DNA of 18,064 nt from Nitrospinota bacterium (GCA_016212295.1 JACRGO010000034.1:1-18064), one strand, 5' to 3'. Numbered from the stretch's first letter, positions 5,547 to 17,757 are shown. The notes: generated by a model from the sequence alone, not told the origin. Made by a program: numbers and translations.

Positions 5547-5554
5547 CTTAAACA

Positions 5555-5589
5555 TTAAATCTTAAATCTTAAATCTTAAATTTTAAATC
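5555..5589. repeat. Heptamer tandem array (TTAAATC)x5 immediately upstream of the 5594 ORF
   Basis: TTAAATC TTAAATC TTAAATC TTAAATT TTAAATC. Confidence 0.85.
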
Positions 5590-5593
5590 CCTT

Positions 5594-6274
5594 ATGCTGG
5601 CAAACAGAGAAATAAAAACGAGACTGGAAAAGGCTTTCCCTATAAAACAGGCGGTGGCGCTGGCCGATGTTTTTATAGAATTCAAGGGAGACCTTGTCAA
5701 GTCTGGAGATTTCAACGAGCTTAAAAATGTAGTAAAAGAACTTGCCGAGGCTCAGAAGCGGACAGAAGTAAAAATGGGAGAACTTGCCGGCGCTCAGAAG
5801 AGGACAGAAGTAAAAATGGAAGAACTTGCCGAGGCGCAGAAACGGACGGATTATGAACTTGTCCTCTTTCGCCGCACTTTTACCTCTCAGATTGGAGGGC
5901 TTGGGGCGCGATGGGGTATGATGACGGAATCGTCGTTTCGCAACGCCATGGAGGGAATACTGTCAGAAGTTGGGTTCAAGGCCGAGAGGTTCATAGCTAA
6001 AGACAAAAAGGGGACAGTTTTCGGGTATCCGGCGGAAGTGGAGCTTGATGTTGTCGTTAAAAACGGCAAGACCCTGGTCATTGAGATTAAATCCTCGGTT
6101 AGCCGGGCGGACGCGGCCTCCTTTGACAAGAAGGTAAGCTTTTACGAGAAGGAGACACGGCGGAAGGCTAGCAGGAAGATAATTATATCTCCTTATACCG
6201 AGCCCGCGGCCCATGACGCCGCCAAAAGACTGGGGATCGAGGTTTTTACTGATATAAATGACCCGGCTTTGTAA
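5594..6274 (+). CDS. Coiled-coil-repeat plus PD-(D/E)XK-like nuclease-fold protein (DUF3782-like), inserted between fabD and fabG
   Basis: N-terminal 14-aa tandem repeats [14 protein letters not shown] x about 2.6. C-terminal [24 protein letters not shown] fits the D...(D/E)xK restriction-endonuclease-like core. No fab-pathway role. Confidence 0.55.
5738..5850 (+). repeat. In-frame 42-bp tandem repeat (about 2.6 copies) inside the 5594-6274 CDS
   Basis: Units 5738-5779 and 5780-5821 are near identical. The third unit diverges after about 27 nt. Confidence 0.85.
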
Positions 6275-9861: not shown

Positions 9862-9872
9862 GACTGAAATCA

Positions 9873-9928
9873 GTGACAAGTGACGAGTAACAAGTGACAA
9901 GTGACAAGTGGCGAGTAACGAGTAAAAA
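9873..9928. repeat. Heptamer array A: GTGACAA GTGACGA GTAACAA GTGACAA GTGACAA GTGGCGA GTAACGA GTAAAAA
   Basis: Eight consecutive 7-mers. Preceded by TGACTGAAA. Confidence 0.9.
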
Positions 9929-9964
9929 ACGGAAAATGCCCCACTTGATCCATGCCTCTTGACA

Positions 9965-10237: not shown

Positions 10238-10247
10238 TTTTTTCTTA

Positions 10248-10296
10248 GTGACCAGTGACGAGTAACGAGTGATCAGTGGCGAGTAACGAGTGACGA
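10248..10296. repeat. Heptamer array B1 (GTGACCA GTGACGA GTAACGA GTGATCA GTGGCGA GTAACGA GTGACGA)
   Basis: Seven 7-mers. Inverted partner B2 lies 24 bp away. Confidence 0.9.
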
Positions 10297-10320
10297 GTCT
10301 TAGAAGCATAGGTTTTTTAC

Positions 10321-10369
10321 TTGTCACTCGTCACTTGTCACTCGTCACTATTTATTTGTCACTCGTCAC
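10321..10369. repeat. Heptamer array B2 (TTGTCAC TCGTCAC TTGTCAC TCGTCAC TATTTAT TTGTCAC TCGTCAC), inverse of B1. The two form a palindrome of about 120 bp
   Basis: Reverse-complement orientation of B1. It contains the stop codon and last codons (..SSDE*) of the BMC-P gene at 10359-10637. Confidence 0.9.
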
Positions 10370-10637
10370 TGCTCCTTGCGTCTATATTGTCAACAATCCC
10401 GACGATACCGGCGTCTATGGGACTGAAGGTGTCCGGCAGAGTCAGGGCCGCCTCGCGTCCGACCACATAAGAGACGGTCTCGCCGATTCCGGCCTGTTGG
10501 GCGTCCACCATCACAAGAGGCTCTCCCTTGGGTTTTCGCTCGTGGTCCACCGGCTGCACCAGCAGGAGCTTGATTCCCTCCAGGCTTGGATGCTTCACCG
10601 TGGCCACCACCCGTCCTATTACTTTTCCTATGTGCAT
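10359..10637 (-). CDS. BMC vertex protein (EutN/PduN family, BMC-P) copy 2
   Basis: MHIGKVIGRVVATVKHPSLEGIKLLLVQPV. GGAG RBS. C-terminal tail encoded by repeat array B2. Confidence 0.85.
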   Translation of the reverse strand: MHIGKVIGRVVATVKHPSLEGIKLLLVQPVDHERKPKGEPLVMVDAQQAGIGETVSYVVGREAALTLPDTFSPIDAGIVGIVDNIDARSSDE

Positions 10638-10772
10638 GAAAAAACTCCAGCCACAAACTTTATTCAGTTTTCCCTTAATATATCAATAACTACGTTGACA
10701 ATTGAATTTATTGCGCCACTTTTTAGTTTGCCTATTTCAGAAATAATCAGTTTATTGTGAATGGTATTAATA

Positions 10773-10994
10773 CTACCGAGCCTTTTGAAAATGTTGCCAT
10801 GCCTCATCCTCCTCTGGACGGTTCCAATCTTCCGCGAGGGCTGTTTCGCTTAACAAGGCTTCCTCATTTACATGAATTAAAGGTTCCTCATCAAGAATCG
10901 TGACTAATGCACGGCAGGATGAAGACAGTTTAATCGGTTCAGACAACTTAATATTGCCTTTTAGATCAATTGTTGCTTCAAGTATGCGGACCAT
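10773..10994 (-). CDS. Small AF2212/AbrB-like, antitoxin-like protein (73 aa), orphan
   Basis: True start MVRILEATIDLKGNIKLSEPIKL...ALVTILDEE with AGGAGG 7 nt upstream; the ORF-track TTG start translates the RBS. C-terminal LSETALAEDWNRPEEDEAW resembles the tails of type II antitoxins that pair with PIN toxins. No toxin gene is adjacent. Confidence 0.4.
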   Translation of the reverse strand: MVRILEATIDLKGNIKLSEPIKLSSSCRALVTILDEEPLIHVNEEALLSETALAEDWNRPEEDEAWQHFQKAR

Positions 10995-11066
10995 ATTAGG
11001 CCTCCTTTTTTTCAAATAAATATGCTTTTATTTAATGAAATCAAATATACACATTTCTTGATAGAG

Positions 11067-11078
11067 TAGCAATTGCTA
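11067..11078. promoter_or_regulatory. Perfect 12-bp palindrome TAGCAATTGCTA flanked by inverted TGATAG/CTATCA hexamers; candidate operator
   Basis: About 70 bp upstream of the 10994 start codon on the - strand. Confidence 0.3.
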
Positions 11079-11084
11079 TCACAA

Positions 11085-11630
11085 TTAGAGCAATTTAAAA
11101 TTCAAATCCGCATGGGGGGCGGGGATGATCTCCTTTGCAACCAGGGTCCCCCCTTCCATTAAATTCCTGATCCCTGCCTCTATCGCGGCTTCCACCTCGG
11201 AGATGTCGCCGGTCAGGGTGTAAAACGATTTTCCGCCAAGGCCGTTGGCAAGGCGCAGCTCGATGAGGTCCACCTTCGCCGCCTTCACCGCCGTGTCGGC
11301 TGAAACAATGGCCGAGGCCACTGAGAAGGTCTCCACTATCCCCAATGCCGCAAGTCCCGCCACCTCGGTGCATGCCTCCATTGCCGGGATGACCTGCCCA
11401 TGTACCTGGGGCAGAAAAAGTTCGTCCACCACAAGTTCTGCCCCTATGCTTATCCCCTCCCTGACGGCTTCCTCGACCGAGGCAACGTCGCCGCGCACAA
11501 GGACCATGTACTTTCCGGGGCACACGGTCCTTGCTTCCATGAGCTTCACCGGGGCCTTTTTCATCATGGCGTCGCAAACCCGTATTCCCCTGGCAACGCT
11601 TCTTAGTTCTATTAATCCTATAGCTTCCAT
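11085..11630 (-). CDS. Tandem BMC-domain shell protein (BMC-T, PduT-like)
   Basis: Two PF00936-like halves: MEAIGLIELRSVARGIRVCDAMMKKA... and LAALGIVETFSVASAIVSADTAVKAAKV.... 181 aa. Confidence 0.8.
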   Translation of the reverse strand: MEAIGLIELRSVARGIRVCDAMMKKAPVKLMEARTVCPGKYMVLVRGDVASVEEAVREGISIGAELVVDELFLPQVHGQVIPAMEACTEVAGLAALGIVETFSVASAIVSADTAVKAAKVDLIELRLANGLGGKSFYTLTGDISEVEAAIEAGIRNLMEGGTLVAKEIIPAPHADLNFKLL

Positions 11631-11638
11631 TAATTATC

Positions 11639-11672
11639 CACGTTATCAGTTCACGGTTTACGGTTCACGGTT
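11639..11672. repeat. Heptamer array CACGTTA TCAGTT CACGGTT TACGGTT CACGGTT; left boundary of the four-helix-bundle cassette
   Basis: Inverse partner AACCGTG array at 12042-12069. Contains the stop codon of the 11665-12015 gene. Confidence 0.85.
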
Positions 11673-12015
11673 TTTTCAATGAATCATGCAAGGCTTGCAA
11701 CATTTTTGATATGGATTTCAACTCATTAATCAAACCTTTTGCGTCACTGTCGGAAAATACGTTAATTTCCCTTGAAATATAAACTTGTGTCCGCAGTTCC
11801 GCCGCCGAGCCTTTTGCAATGTTTATAAACCTTTGAAAATCTGGAACACTGTTTCTTTCGCACCCTTCCGCGATATTCGATGGAATAGATACGGATGAGC
11901 GCAACATTTGATCTTTCAGCCCATAATCACGGCAATCTTTTAATAATTTATAGAGGGTTACTGTCAGTCTGCAAGATTTTTTCCAAACTTCTAAATTCTC
12001 AAAGGAAGCGCTCAT
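11665..12015 (-). CDS. Four-helix-bundle protein (23S rRNA intervening-sequence protein / Avd-like family, TIGR02436-type), intact copy
   Basis: LEVWKKS...LKDQMLRSSVSIPSNIAEG..R.S..DFQRFINIAKGSAAELRTQVYIS matches the family consensus. Flanked by inverted CACGGTT/AACCGTG heptamer arrays. Confidence 0.85.
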   Translation of the reverse strand: MSASFENLEVWKKSCRLTVTLYKLLKDCRDYGLKDQMLRSSVSIPSNIAEGCERNSVPDFQRFINIAKGSAAELRTQVYISREINVFSDSDAKGLINELKSISKMLQALHDSLKKP

Positions 12016-12041: not shown

Positions 12042-12069
12042 AACCGTGAACTGTGAACCGTGAACCGTA
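12042..12069. repeat. Heptamer array AACCGTG AACTGTG AACCGTG AACCGTA; right boundary of the four-helix-bundle cassette
   Basis: Reverse complement of the 11639-11672 array. Confidence 0.85.
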
Positions 12070-12090
12070 AACAATTTTCTTATTTTATGT

Positions 12091-13425: not shown

Positions 13426-13435
13426 TTGAATGATA

Positions 13436-13498
13436 GTGACTGAAAGATAGTGACAAGTGACAAGTGACAAGTGACGAGTGACAAGTAAAAAGTAAAAA
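13436..13498. repeat. Heptamer array C (GTGACTG..GTGACAA x3 GTGACGA GTGACAA GTAAAAA GTAAAAA)
   Basis: Inverted partner D at 13571-13619, 72 bp away. Confidence 0.9.
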
Positions 13499-13570
13499 CT
13501 TATAGCTCTTTGGGCGGACAAAAAAAATCAATGGCCAGGGATCAGTACCGGCTCCTGGATTCTTTTCTAC

Positions 13571-13619
13571 TCGTCACTCGTCACTTGTCACTCGTTACTG
13601 CTTCTCGGTAACTCGTCAC
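13571..13619. repeat. Heptamer array D (TCGTCAC TCGTCAC TTGTCAC TCGTTAC ... TCGTCAC), inverse of C
   Basis: Ends 4 bp from the aldehyde dehydrogenase stop codon. Confidence 0.9.
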
Positions 13620-13623
13620 TGCT

Positions 13624-16491: not shown

Positions 16492-16528
16492 AGTGACTAT
16501 AAAACCAGTGACCAGTGACGAGTAATTA
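16492..16528. repeat. Heptamer array E (GTGACTA...GTGACCA GTGACGA GTAATTA)
   Basis: Overlaps the stop codon of the 16526-16807 gene. Inverse partner F at 16827-16847. Confidence 0.8.
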
Positions 16529-16807
16529 GTTTGTGCTCCTCAAGGAGCGTTGTAAGCCAATAATCATTTTTGAAATTTCGTCCAGTTCTTCCAATAAACT
16601 ATTTTCAATTCGCGACTCCAGGAGTTGTAAATTTTTACTTATGATGATTTGTGTTTCCAGTTCCGCTATATTAGATGGAATGGATACGGCCGCTCGCCGC
16701 ATTTGGGATAGCAGGCCAAATTTCTCTTCCGAAGGAAAGGAAGCAATCTGTTCCACAAAGCTGATTGACCTTTTCCATACCTCCAGGCGCTTATGCGGCT
16801 TTCCCAT
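16526..16807 (-). CDS. Four-helix-bundle protein (Avd-like / 23S-IVS family), second copy with an internal deletion of about 20 aa; possibly degenerate
   Basis: MGKPHKRLEVWKRS...FGLLSQMRRAAVSIPSNIAE|LETQIIIS lacks the G..R.S..DF..F..IA.GS segment present in the copy at 11665-12015. True ATG at 16807 with GGAGGG RBS; the track start at 16840 is repeat-derived. Confidence 0.65.
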   Translation of the reverse strand: MGKPHKRLEVWKRSISFVEQIASFPSEEKFGLLSQMRRAAVSIPSNIAELETQIIISKNLQLLESRIENSLLEELDEISKMIIGLQRSLRSTN

Positions 16808-16826
16808 GAAATCCCTCCCTTTTAAC

Positions 16827-16847
16827 TCGTCACTTGTCACTCGTCAC
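16827..16847. repeat. Heptamer array F (TCGTCAC TTGTCAC TCGTCAC), inverse of E
   Basis: Read directly from the sequence. Confidence 0.85.
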
Positions 16848-16853
16848 TATCTT

Positions 16854-17723
16854 CTAATACTGTTTCGCCACGATCGCGTCCTCTATCTTCCTCGTGTTGG
16901 CCAGGGTGCGCTGCCGGTTCGTCATGCCGATCGTTATATACAGCACGTCAATGATGCTTGACTGCGCGATCCTCGAGGCAAGGGCCTCGCTCCGGTATTT
17001 GGTCTCCTTGGAAGAGGTCACGAGGACCACGTCCGCTACCTTTGCCAGGGGCGAAAGGGAATTATTAGTGATTGCTATCGCCTTGACCCCGTTTTTCCTG
17101 GCGACTTCTATTGTGTCTATGGGGTCCCTGGTGCTCCCGGAATGGGAGATGGCAAGGACTAGGTCGCCCTTTCTCAATAGCGCGGCCTCCATCATCTGGA
17201 GGTGGCTGTCGTTTTGATAGGAGCACCAAAGCCCAAGCCTCAGGAATTTATTAAAGGCGTCAAAAAGGATGGGGGTGGAGGTCCCGACCCCGATTATCAG
17301 AATTTTTTTCGCCTTGCTCAACAGCTTCACGGCTTCCCCGACGGCCTCCGGCTTCAGCGCCTCCAGGGTGCTTTGCAGGGTCTCGATGTTGGCGGAAAAG
17401 ACCTTGCGGATGATGGTGGCCGTCCCGTCCCTTTCGCTCACGTCCTCATGTATGGCGTGGTGGATGGGAGATACAAGGTCCCGCGCCAAATTAATCTTCA
17501 GGTCCTGAAAGCCCCTGTATCCCATGGTCCTGCAGAAACGGATCACGGTCGCCTCGCTGGCCCCGGCGCCGATTGCCACTTCGCTCACCGACTGGTCAAG
17601 AACGCCCTGCGCGTTGCCGAGCGCGTATTCCGCCACTTTTTTCTCCGCCGAGTGAAGTGACGGCAGCATGCCCCTCAGTCTGGCAAGACAATTTTCCCTT
17701 GGGGCCGCTTGGGTCTTCAGCAT
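16854..17723 (-). CDS. RpiR/MurR-family transcriptional regulator (HTH plus SIS sugar-phosphate-binding domain)
   Basis: LHSAEKKVAEYAL...SEATVIRFCRTMGYRGFQDLK is an RpiR-type HTH. The SIS domain shows IGVGTS...ISHSGST. ATG at 17723 preferred; the track GTG at 17738 overlaps the -10 box. Confidence 0.85.
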   Translation of the reverse strand: MLKTQAAPRENCLARLRGMLPSLHSAEKKVAEYALGNAQGVLDQSVSEVAIGAGASEATVIRFCRTMGYRGFQDLKINLARDLVSPIHHAIHEDVSERDGTATIIRKVFSANIETLQSTLEALKPEAVGEAVKLLSKAKKILIIGVGTSTPILFDAFNKFLRLGLWCSYQNDSHLQMMEAALLRKGDLVLAISHSGSTRDPIDTIEVARKNGVKAIAITNNSLSPLAKVADVVLVTSSKETKYRSEALASRIAQSSIIDVLYITIGMTNRQRTLANTRKIEDAIVAKQY

Positions 17724-17729
17724 GATGAA

Positions 17730-17757
17730 ATTATACACGGAAAAAATTTCTTGTCAA
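17730..17757 (-). promoter_or_regulatory. Strong sigma70-like promoter TTGACA-16-TATAAT for the RpiR gene; the ATG lies 6 nt after the -10, so the mRNA is probably leaderless
   Basis: - strand TTGACA corresponds to 17752-17757 and TATAAT to 17730-17735. Confidence 0.55.

What the first reader, a model, noticed from the sequence alone, without database searches (positions are those of the whole stretch)
10773..11081. Orphan antitoxin-like (AF2212/AbrB-type) gene with a perfect palindromic operator inside the BMC operon
The 73-aa protein has the G-x-I-x-L-x-EP...V-x-I swapped-hairpin-like N-terminus and the LSE.ALAEDW..EEDEAW tail common in type II antitoxins. A perfect palindrome TAGCAATTGCTA at 11067-11078 lies upstream, as expected for autoregulation. 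No PIN or other toxin ORF follows it. It is either an orphan antitoxin, possibly an anti-addiction or regulator remnant, or a small DNA-binding regulator recruited to the BMC operon.
Basis: inference. Interest (0 to 1): 0.5.

Follow-up and report, generated by a model that had tools for sequence, protein, structure and literature searches.

The report
Leftover antitoxin of a broken toxin-antitoxin pair
The small gene is the surviving antitoxin of a MazF-type toxin-antitoxin cassette that landed inside a microcompartment operon and then lost most of its toxin gene, which is a common fate for such selfish elements and not a new regulator.

Summary
The 73-aa ORF (10773-10994, minus strand) and the palindrome TAGCAATTGCTA (11067-11078) are both real. 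The ORF belongs to a large family with no Pfam assignment: more than 2,600 90%-identity clusters, at least 13 phyla, nearly always 73 aa. In 49 of 80 assessable loci it overlaps by 28 nt a 109-124-aa PemK/MazF toxin gene. The partner is therefore MazF, not VapC/PIN.

In the window the toxin gene is a wreck. Codons 1-14 and the last 30 codons survive, and about 199 nt between them are deleted out of frame.

The module is a 443-bp, 35%-GC insertion between the BMC-T and BMC-P genes. Sister operons have an empty junction, or a different TA (VapB-PIN, also decaying) at the same spot. It is therefore not a conserved BMC component.

The palindrome is no more than chance gives (5 observed, 4.9 expected). 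It is absent from all 84 other unique upstream regions and lies outside the family's conserved promoter.

The N-terminal half is weakly AF2212/RelN-like. The tail resembles the C-terminus of E. coli MazE.

Verdict: an ordinary decayed TA module. The antitoxin family is uncharacterised, and the insertion hotspot is mildly interesting.

The parts
10773..10994 (-). Antitoxin gene, 73 aa (MVRILEATIDLKGN...QHFQKAR), stop included. The N-terminal beta-rich domain (about residues 1-36) is weakly AF2212/RelN-like. The C-terminal helical tail (residues 44-71) carries the near-invariant LLSE.ALAEDWNRPEEDEAW motif.
   Evidence: dN/dS against relatives is 0.05-0.14.
11001..11005 (-). Ribosome-binding site GGAGG, 6 nt before the antitoxin ATG.
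   Evidence: read directly. The position is conserved in relatives.
10759..10800 (-). Toxin remnant, 5' part: native MazF-type toxin start codon and codons 1-14 (MATFSKGSVVLIPF). Its first 28 nt overlap the antitoxin 3' end. The reading frame then runs TIN-stop, ending at 10747.
   Evidence: Alignment with intact toxin genes of L001/L002/L003/L092.
10664..10756 (-). Toxin remnant, 3' part: the last 30 codons plus the original stop codon (NKLIISEIGKLKSGAINSIVNVVIDILREN*). It is shifted by one base relative to the 5' part, so it reads as the tail of the 47-aa ORF 10664-10807. About 199 nt (toxin residues 15-80) are missing between the two parts.
   Evidence: 20 of the 25 invariant toxin columns, including the Arg25-Pro26 and Thr44 positions, fall in the deleted stretch.
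10639..11081 (-). The whole inserted cassette: 443 bp, GC 0.354, against 0.57-0.58 in the flanking shell genes. It lies between TAATTG (BMC-T stop plus 3 nt) and CATG (EutN start).
   Evidence: Alignment with sister locus L101, which has an empty site (TAA TTGCC ATG), and with L087. GC values.
11067..11078 (.). Perfect palindrome TAGCAATTGCTA, beginning 3 nt inside the 5' edge of the insert. It overlaps a weak -35-like TTGCTA.
   Evidence: It is at chance frequency and is not conserved in any homologous locus.
11044..11072 (-). Weak sigma-70-like match: TTGCTA, 17 nt, TATATT (9 of 12 positions).
   Evidence: 4 such sites in the 1.9 kb scanned against 2.5 +/- 1.8 expected. It is not the family's conserved promoter.
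10638..10652 (-). GGCTGGAGTTTTTTC: the 3' end of the insert, supplying the ribosome-binding site of the downstream EutN gene. The VapBC-bearing sister loci L099 and L102 share it. The empty-site loci L101 and L087 lack it.
11085..11630 (-). Upstream neighbour: tandem-BMC-domain shell protein (BMC-T, PduT-like), 181 aa.
10359..10637 (-). Downstream neighbour: EutN/CcmL pentamer (BMC-P) protein, 92 aa.

Best explanation
The 73-aa gene is the antitoxin half of a two-gene type II toxin-antitoxin cassette whose toxin is a PemK/MazF-family endoribonuclease.

In intact relatives the antitoxin gene comes first. The toxin gene starts 28 nt before the antitoxin stop, and its ribosome-binding site and ATG lie inside the codons for PEEDEAW. 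The pair has a conserved promoter of its own.

One such cassette (443 bp, 35% GC, foreign to this 55-60% GC genome) was inserted between the BMC-T and first BMC-P genes of a Nitrospinae microcompartment operon, in the operon's orientation. An out-of-frame internal deletion of about 199 nt then removed toxin residues 15-80. These include the positions that align with the catalytic Arg of E. coli MazF, so the toxin is dead.

The antitoxin ORF is intact and has a strong ribosome-binding site. It has lost the family's -35 element and most of its -10 element, and no terminator separates it from the shell genes. It is therefore most likely made by read-through from the BMC operon (inferred).

By analogy with MazE, the C-terminal helices (residues 44-71, DW..PEED.AW) would wrap the toxin dimer. 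The N-terminal beta domain would dimerise and bind DNA. Both points are inferred, not shown.

With no cognate toxin next to it, the protein is most likely a leftover. The toxin can be lost safely and the antitoxin cannot be lost first, so antitoxin-only remnants are the expected intermediate of TA decay. The palindrome is a chance feature at the edge of the insert, not an operator.
For: Family and partner.
- More than 2,600 clusters of about 73-aa homologues, and 1,868 50%-identity clusters by exhaustive HMM search.
- In Scalindua, Acidobacteria and other loci the next gene is a 111-113-aa PF02452 protein overlapping by 28 nt. These toxins pass Pfam's gathering score, at 27.9 and 34.1 bits against 23.1.
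- Of 80 assessable unique loci, 49 have an intact toxin.

Remnant.
- The window keeps toxin codons 1-14 and the last 30 codons plus the stop. It is 199 nt shorter than the intact gene, and the frame is shifted.
- 20 of 25 invariant toxin columns are in the gap.
- Arg25 aligns with Arg29 of E. coli MazF (the MazF sequence was verified against the PDB).

Insertion.
- The closest operons L087, L088, L091 and L101 have only 2-5 nt between BMC-T and EutN.
- GC is 0.354 in the insert against 0.57-0.58 in the flanks.

Not BMC-specific.
- L099 and L102 carry VapB-PIN, decaying, at the same junction.

Antitoxin under constraint.
- dN/dS is 0.05-0.14. The window protein deviates at only 2 of 36 conserved columns.

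No minus-strand terminator between 10300 and 12200.

Palindrome.
- Chance frequency. Absent from all 84 other upstream regions and from two metagenome scans.
Against: No experiment shows that this family's antitoxin neutralises its toxin or binds DNA.

The fold of the N-terminal domain could not be established. There was no Pfam hit for the window protein, and the monomer models found no structural match.

Expression by read-through is inferred from orientation and the lack of a terminator-like site only.

Only an 18-kb window of the genome was available, so a related intact toxin elsewhere could give the antitoxin a present-day job.

The intact state of the ORF, and the lack of extra divergence in toxin-less copies across the family (1.16 vs 0.92 deviations, p = 0.066), fit continued selection as well as recent decay.
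Confidence: 0.85

Rival explanations
1. The antitoxin is kept by selection as an anti-addiction or cross-neutralising factor. It would protect the cell against related MazF toxins encoded elsewhere in the genome or arriving on mobile elements.
For: The ORF is intact, has a strong ribosome-binding site, and sits where it will be transcribed. 31 of 80 family loci have a damaged or missing toxin but a full-length antitoxin. These orphan copies are not significantly more diverged at conserved positions. dN/dS is low. Orphan antitoxins are abundant in other bacteria, and this role has been proposed for them (PMC7192599).
Against: Antitoxin-only intermediates are expected from neutral decay alone. 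dS to every sampled relative is saturated (above 1), so the low dN/dS mostly records the time before toxin loss. No second toxin is visible in the window, and the rest of the genome could not be examined.
Confidence: 0.2
2. The protein has been recruited as a DNA-binding regulator of the microcompartment operon and uses the palindrome TAGCAATTGCTA as its operator.
For: It lies inside the operon. Its N-terminal domain resembles AF2212/RelN-type antitoxin domains, which are presumed to bind DNA (PMC2701414). The palindrome overlaps a weak -35-like hexamer.
Against: The closest BMC operons lack the gene (L087, L101) or carry a different TA at the same place (L099, L102). The palindrome is at chance frequency and is unique to this locus. 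The operon already has an RpiR/SIS regulator at 16854-17738. The toxin wreck next to the gene shows its origin.
Confidence: 0.04
3. The module is still an active TA pair, with the 47-aa ORF (10664-10807) or the 17-aa peptide acting as a miniature toxin.
Against: Its first 17 residues are out-of-frame sequence and the rest is only the C-terminal helix of the toxin. The beta-barrel core and the catalytic positions are deleted. There was no Pfam hit. Its ATG directly abuts the GAGGAGG, leaving no spacer.
Confidence: 0.02

Closest known systems
MazE-MazF / PemI-PemK (Kis-Kid) type II toxin-antitoxin modules
   Same: The toxin belongs to Pfam PF02452. The RP motif aligns with the catalytic Arg29 of E. 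coli MazF. The antitoxin gene comes first and overlaps the toxin gene. The antitoxin has an acidic C-terminal tail whose EDWNRPEEDEAW aligns with the last 12 residues of E. coli MazE, IDWGEPKDKEVW.
   Different: The antitoxin N-terminal domain gives no match to the SpoVT/AbrB-type MazE domain in Pfam or in hhalign. Neither protein finds a solved relative by sequence. In the window the toxin is deleted.
AF2212-like / COG2880 / DUF104 antitoxins (PF01954), usually paired with PIN toxins
   Same: The N-terminal 34 residues align in register with a Pfam-annotated AF2212-like protein (M..T.EA...G.v..lE.v.l...r...vTI; hhalign E 2e-4, probability 45%). 8 of 78 family members give weak PF01954 hits. 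The literature links this family to the AbrB superfamily, and records one DUF104 antitoxin next to a MazF toxin (PMC2701414, PMC3879964).
   Different: All hits are below Pfam's threshold, and the window protein gives none. The partner is MazF, not PIN. This family has a long conserved helical tail that short AF2212-like proteins lack.
RelN antitoxin domain (NCBIfam NF050107)
   Same: 21 of 31 family members match its N-terminal positions 7-41 (best E 6.7e-6; window protein E 0.022).
   Different: Scores (15 bits for the window protein) are far below the curated 70-bit cut-off. RelN pairs with RelE-type toxins.
Orphan antitoxins left by decaying TA loci
   Same: An intact antitoxin sits next to a truncated or absent toxin. 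This is frequent within this family too, at 31 of 80 loci. It is described as abundant in Klebsiella, with anti-addiction proposed as a possible role (PMC7192599).
   Different: Nothing essential. The only unusual point is the location inside a microcompartment operon, at a junction that another TA has also colonised.

Membership tests
Type II TA module of the MazF/PemK class (antitoxin component) | The antitoxin gene is immediately followed by, and co-oriented with, a PF02452 toxin gene | tested here: met
   Met for the family: 49 of 80 assessable loci, with a 28-nt overlap, and the toxins pass the Pfam cut-off. In the window itself only toxin codons 1-14 and 81-111 remain.
Type II TA module of the MazF/PemK class (antitoxin component) | An intact, potentially active toxin is present at this locus | tested here: not met
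   An out-of-frame internal deletion of about 199 nt has occurred. 20 of 25 invariant toxin columns are missing, including the Arg aligned with MazF Arg29.
Type II TA module of the MazF/PemK class (antitoxin component) | The antitoxin protein binds and neutralises the toxin | not testable with these tools
   There is only indirect support. The C-terminal motif resembles the MazE C-terminus, and the predicted helices at 44-57 and 60-71 have moderate confidence.
Type II TA module of the MazF/PemK class (antitoxin component) | Autoregulation through an operator in the module's own promoter | tested here: inconclusive
   The family shows a conserved promoter-like region (GTTAG in 21 and TGTRYAMT in 27 of 85 upstream regions; GCCATGCATGGC in three Nitrospira loci). 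The window has neither motif, and its palindrome is unique to it. Binding was not testable.
Pfam AF2212-like (PF01954) | Score at or above the Pfam gathering threshold | tested here: not met
   The window protein gives no hit. 3 of 31 and 8 of 78 members give weak hits, with a best E of 7.5e-4.
Pfam AF2212-like (PF01954) | The N-terminal strand pattern aligns in register with a family member | tested here: inconclusive
   hhalign places residues 1-34 against a 41-aa PF01954 protein of L002: E 2e-4, probability 45%. A second member gave probability 6%.
AbrB/MazE/SpoVT swapped-hairpin DNA-binding domain | Sequence or structural match to the swapped-hairpin domain | tested here: inconclusive
NCBIfam RelN antitoxin (NF050107) | Score at or above the curated cut-off (70 bits) | tested here: not met
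   15.4 bits for the window protein. 21 of 31 members hit weakly.
Conserved component of this BMC operon type | Present at the same position in related operons | tested here: not met
   Absent in L087, L088, L089, L091 and L101. L099 and L102 carry VapB-PIN there instead.

The most novel reading that the evidence does not exclude
The BMC-T/BMC-P junction of this Nitrospinae microcompartment operon is a true insertion hotspot. Closely related strains carry either nothing, a MazF-type module (this window) or a VapB-PIN module (L099, L102) at the same few bases. Both inserts end in the same GGCTGGAG(C)TTTTTT, which supplies the downstream gene's ribosome-binding site. Neighbouring spacers hold four-helix-bundle genes or a restriction-modification pair. 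This could reflect a targeted or cassette-like integration mechanism into operon junctions. It could also reflect selection for TA modules that stabilise a horizontally moving metabolic operon, with the surviving antitoxin, now co-transcribed with shell genes, retained for a purpose.
Probability: 0.12. Interest if true: 0.55.

Novelty: new member of a known kind. Interest (0 to 1): 0.27.

Why it matters
For annotation, it replaces a 'hypothetical protein' with a concrete call. The gene is the antitoxin of a decayed MazF-type module, and a pseudogene lies beside it. It should not be counted as part of the microcompartment machinery.

More generally, the 73-aa antitoxin family is very large and spread across many environmental phyla, yet it has no Pfam model and no characterised member that I could verify. 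A family model pairing it with its MazF-like toxin would annotate thousands of genes.

About a third of sampled loci have lost the toxin but kept the antitoxin. This, together with the repeated colonisation of one operon junction by different TA modules, gives modest and testable material for studying how TA modules spread and decay in uncultured bacteria.

Tried and rejected
1. Pfam and NCBIfam on the window protein gave no usable family hit.

2. PDB sequence searches found nothing relevant. I used the antitoxin profiles A2 and A6, one intact toxin, and the toxin profile A7.

4. Two metagenome scans found nothing: one for palindrome plus ribosome-binding site plus ATG, the other for the 21-nt flank GATAGCAATTGCTACTCTATC.

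5. tblastn of the antitoxin against sequenced plasmids and phages gave no match, so there is no evidence for a plasmid or phage vehicle.

6. Rfam over the whole window found nothing.

7. I looked for VapB or PIN remains inside the window's insert, to test whether the MazF-type cassette replaced the sister strains' VapBC. None were found.

8. I tried to establish whether the characterised Nitrospira ND1 MazEF-nd1 or MazF-nd2 (PMC7291052) belongs to this family. The sequences are only in figure images, so this is unresolved.

9. I considered a target-site duplication. AATTGCT-CTA at the BMC-T 3' end resembles AATTGCTACTCTA next to the palindrome, but both copies lie at the same end of the insert. 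I rejected it as a duplication flanking the element.

10. I tested whether orphan copies show relaxed constraint. The result was not significant (p = 0.066).

Full report
THE OBSERVATION

The minus strand carries an ORF of 73 codons (ATG 10994-10992, stop 10775-10773). It is preceded by GGAGG at 11005-11001 with a 6-nt spacer.

TAGCAATTGCTA is a perfect palindrome at 11067-11078. The gene lies between a tandem-BMC-domain shell gene (11085-11630) and an EutN/CcmL gene (10359-10637). These belong to a minus-strand operon that also encodes:
- a second EutN and a class II aldolase;
- a PduS/RnfC-like flavoprotein and an aldehyde dehydrogenase;
- further shell proteins and an RpiR/SIS regulator.

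The region from about 10640 to 11085 is a clear low-GC island.

WHAT THE GENE IS

The protein has no Pfam hit, and only a weak NCBIfam match to the N-terminal part of the RelN antitoxin model. A search of 5.8 billion clustered proteins returned more than 2,600 clusters. Nearly all are 73 aa and 60-82% identical, and they come from Planctomycetota (Scalindua, Brocadiaceae), Acidobacteriota, Chloroflexota, KSB1 and others. An exhaustive HMM search found 1,868 clusters at the 50% identity level. A scan of species-representative genomes found at least 546 copies, in at least 13 phyla by record title.

The genomic context is decisive. In Scalindua, Acidobacteria and most other loci the next gene starts 28 nt before the antitoxin stop and encodes a 109-124-aa protein. 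Two of these proteins pass the Pfam gathering threshold for PemK_toxin (PF02452) over the full model length. Their invariant KLRP motif aligns with the HRP of E. coli MazF that contains catalytic Arg29 (the recalled MazF sequence was checked against the PDB).

Of 80 assessable unique loci, 49 have an intact toxin gene in this arrangement. The family is therefore the antitoxin of a MazF/PemK-type type II module, not of a PIN/VapC toxin.

The extreme conservation of PEEDEAW at the nucleotide level (GAGGAGGATGAGGCATGG) has a simple cause. These codons also hold the toxin's ribosome-binding site and start codon.

THE TOXIN IN THE WINDOW

Downstream of the antitoxin the window keeps the native toxin start (ATG at 10800) and 14 codons. 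MATFSKGSVVLIPF compares with MATPSKGSVVLIPF in Scalindua. The frame then runs into TIN-stop.

The last 30 codons of the toxin and its stop codon survive at 10664-10756. NKLIISEIGKLKSGAINSIVNVVIDILREN compares with NSLIISEVGKLKNTILNSIITSVIDILKED. They are shifted by one base, so they read as the tail of a 47-aa ORF (10664-10807).

From start to stop the remnant is 137 nt against 336 nt in the intact gene. This is an out-of-frame internal deletion of about 199 nt. It removes residues 15-80 and with them 20 of the 25 invariant columns of the toxin alignment. The toxin is dead.

The surviving 3' piece shows low dN/dS against intact toxins (0.06-0.20, with saturated dS) and keeps its stop codon. 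I infer that the deletion is recent relative to the divergence from any sampled relative.

HOW IT GOT THERE

The closest operons have the same gene order, but BMC-T and EutN are only 2-5 nt apart. These are L087 and L088 (BMC-T 88% identical), L091, and L101 (at least 90% identical, same 90% cluster).

Relative to L101 (TAA TTGCC ATG), the window has 443 extra bases, 10639-11081, with GC 0.354 against 0.57-0.58 in the flanking genes.

Two further sister loci carry a different TA at the same junction. L099 has VapB (PF09957) plus a PIN gene that is split by a roughly 160-nt element with 17-nt terminal inverted repeats. L102 has the same insert further decayed: VapB is internally deleted and only about 10 codons of PIN are left.

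The window's insert and the VapBC inserts share only their last 14-15 nt, GGCTGGAG(C)TTTTTT. This supplies the ribosome-binding site of the downstream EutN and is absent from empty sites. The window's insert contains no VapBC remains.

So the gene is not a conserved part of the microcompartment operon. The junction has been colonised at least twice by unrelated TA modules, each now decaying. I could not determine the insertion mechanism.

The family was not found on sequenced plasmids or phages. Another family member sits between a ferredoxin gene and a pyruvate:ferredoxin oxidoreductase gene, which is another intra-operon location.

THE PALINDROME

The window contains five perfect 12-nt palindromes, and Markov-simulated sequence of the same composition gives 4.9 +/- 2.1. 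A 90-nt AT-rich stretch like this one has about an 8% chance of holding one.

I compared 85 unique upstream regions of family members, including the window's. Only the window's has the palindrome, and no other has anything within two mismatches.

Many family members do share a promoter-like region 20-60 nt before the ATG: GTTAG(G/C)C, about 17 nt, then TGT(A/G)(T/C)A(C/A)T. It is recognisable from Planctomycetota to Nitrospirota and Armatimonadota. Three Nitrospira loci have a different palindrome (GCCATGCATGGC) in its spacer.

In the window, homology to relatives stops about 45-50 nt before the ATG. The -35 element is gone and the -10 is degenerate (CATATTTAT). The window's palindrome begins 3 nt inside the 5' edge of the inserted DNA, outside this conserved region.

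A consensus scan does find TTGCTA, 17 nt, TATATT overlapping the palindrome, at 9 of 12 matches. However, four such sites occur in 1.9 kb against 2.5 expected.

No terminator-like site lies on the minus strand between 10300 and 12200. I therefore infer that the antitoxin is transcribed with the shell genes.

WHAT KIND OF ANTITOXIN

Evidence on the N-terminal half:
- 21 of 31 members weakly match the N-terminal part of NCBIfam's RelN antitoxin model (best E 6.7e-6).
- 8 of 78 diverse members weakly match Pfam AF2212-like (best E 7.5e-4).
- hhalign puts residues 1-34 in register with a 41-aa PF01954 protein from a Scalindua TA island (E 2e-4, probability 45%).

The literature relates AF2212/COG2880/DUF104 to the AbrB superfamily. 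It usually finds that family next to PIN toxins, with one case next to MazF (PMC2701414, PMC3879964).

Against E. coli MazE (sequence verified), only the last 12 residues align: EDWNRPEEDEAW with IDWGEPKDKEVW (pairwise E 0.007-0.02, low probability). From established knowledge of the MazE-MazF structure (1UB4), that segment belongs to the toxin-binding tail.

Formal membership of PF01954, of NF050107 or of the SpoVT/AbrB family is not met.

PRESENT-DAY ROLE

The antitoxin ORF shows strong purifying selection against all relatives (dN/dS 0.05-0.14, dS above 1). It deviates from the family at only two of 36 highly conserved columns (T4I, L69F).

Across the family, 31 of 80 loci have a damaged or missing toxin beside a full-length antitoxin. 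At least 20 of these are large deletions or complete absence. The rest are single frameshifts or stops that could be assembly errors. Breakpoints differ between loci: codon 12 in the closest relatives L096-98, 14 in the window, and 22-37 in others. The losses are therefore independent. In L011 the toxin is cut at about codon 23 by a repeated element.

Orphan copies are not significantly more diverged than paired ones (p = 0.066). This is the pattern expected if toxins can be lost freely while antitoxins cannot be lost first. It is also compatible with orphans being kept as protection against related toxins, a role proposed in the literature (PMC7192599).

I favour the leftover reading, give the anti-addiction reading about one chance in five, and give the recruited-regulator reading a few per cent.

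COMPARISON AND NOVELTY

This is a type II MazF/PemK module in gene order, overlap, toxin family and antitoxin tail. Its antitoxin DNA-binding domain is of the AF2212/RelN kind rather than the classical MazE kind. It is caught in the common orphan-antitoxin stage of decay.

The antitoxin family itself is large and unmodelled. I could not verify whether any member has been characterised; the Nitrospira ND1 MazEF paper does not give sequences in text.

I rate it a new member of a known kind, of low to moderate interest. The most interesting residue is the repeated colonisation of one operon junction by different TA modules.

Noticed in passing
window 9871-9930 / 10312-10371; 10247-10298 / 10319-10370; 13435-13495 / 13564-13620; 16504-16523 / 16825-16844; 11642-11672 / 12042-12072: Tandem heptamer arrays, (AGTGACR)n or (GGTTCAC)n, fill most intergenic spacers of the BMC operon. 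They occur as inverted pairs up to 60 nt long and 85% complementary, so the transcript could form long hairpins. Related operons have heptamer arrays of different sequence at the same spacers (L087 TCGTCAC, L089 TTTTAGA/CCTTGAA).
   Followed up: partly
window 11665-12015 (-) and 16526-16840 (-): Two four-helix-bundle genes of the 23S rRNA intervening-sequence protein family (PF05635; the first is 116 aa with GC 0.385). Each lies exactly between a pair of inverted heptamer arrays, like the ORF in the loop of an rRNA intervening sequence. The gene at 11665-12015 is absent from L087 and L102. Similar genes sit in the same spacer in L089, L099 (two copies), L100 and L101.
   Followed up: partly
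window 5594-6274 (+): A 226-aa PD-(D/E)XK nuclease-family protein (PDDEXK_10 + DUF3782) with an internal 42-nt x 2.7 tandem repeat (5736-5847). It sits between fabD and fabG of a plsX-fabH-fabD-fabG-acpP-fabF cluster and is preceded by a CTTAAAT x 6 heptamer array (5547-5589). It looks like another small gene inserted in an operon spacer.
   Followed up: no
L099 3643-4400: A sister strain carries VapB plus PIN at the same BMC-T/EutN junction. The PIN gene is split by a roughly 160-nt element with 17-nt terminal inverted repeats (GCTATTGCAACACCTTG ... CAAGGTGTTGCAATAGC), which looks like a miniature transposable element. L102 has the same insert, further deleted.
   Followed up: partly
L091 1917-3673: A related BMC operon has a restriction-modification pair (MjaI-type endonuclease plus N6/N4 methyltransferase) inserted between the aldehyde dehydrogenase and PduS-like genes.
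   Followed up: no
L011 1930-3710: Brocadiaceae S225 has two full and one partial tandem copies of promoter plus antitoxin plus about 23-25 toxin codons. Each toxin is cut at the same point by a repeated sequence (translating as YRIAGII.GHYIVQTPKGFKKPKVLN) that recurs elsewhere in the locus.
   Followed up: partly
protein P0274: A 3,492-aa predicted protein with 16 separate stretches matching the antitoxin profile. It is possibly a mis-called ORF across a repeat array.
   Followed up: no
upstream regions of L022, L037, L038 (about -48 from the antitoxin ATG): Nitrospira members of the family carry the perfect palindrome GCCATGCATGGC between the conserved -35-like GTTAG and the -10-like TGTATACT. 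It is a better operator candidate for the family than the window's palindrome.
   Followed up: partly
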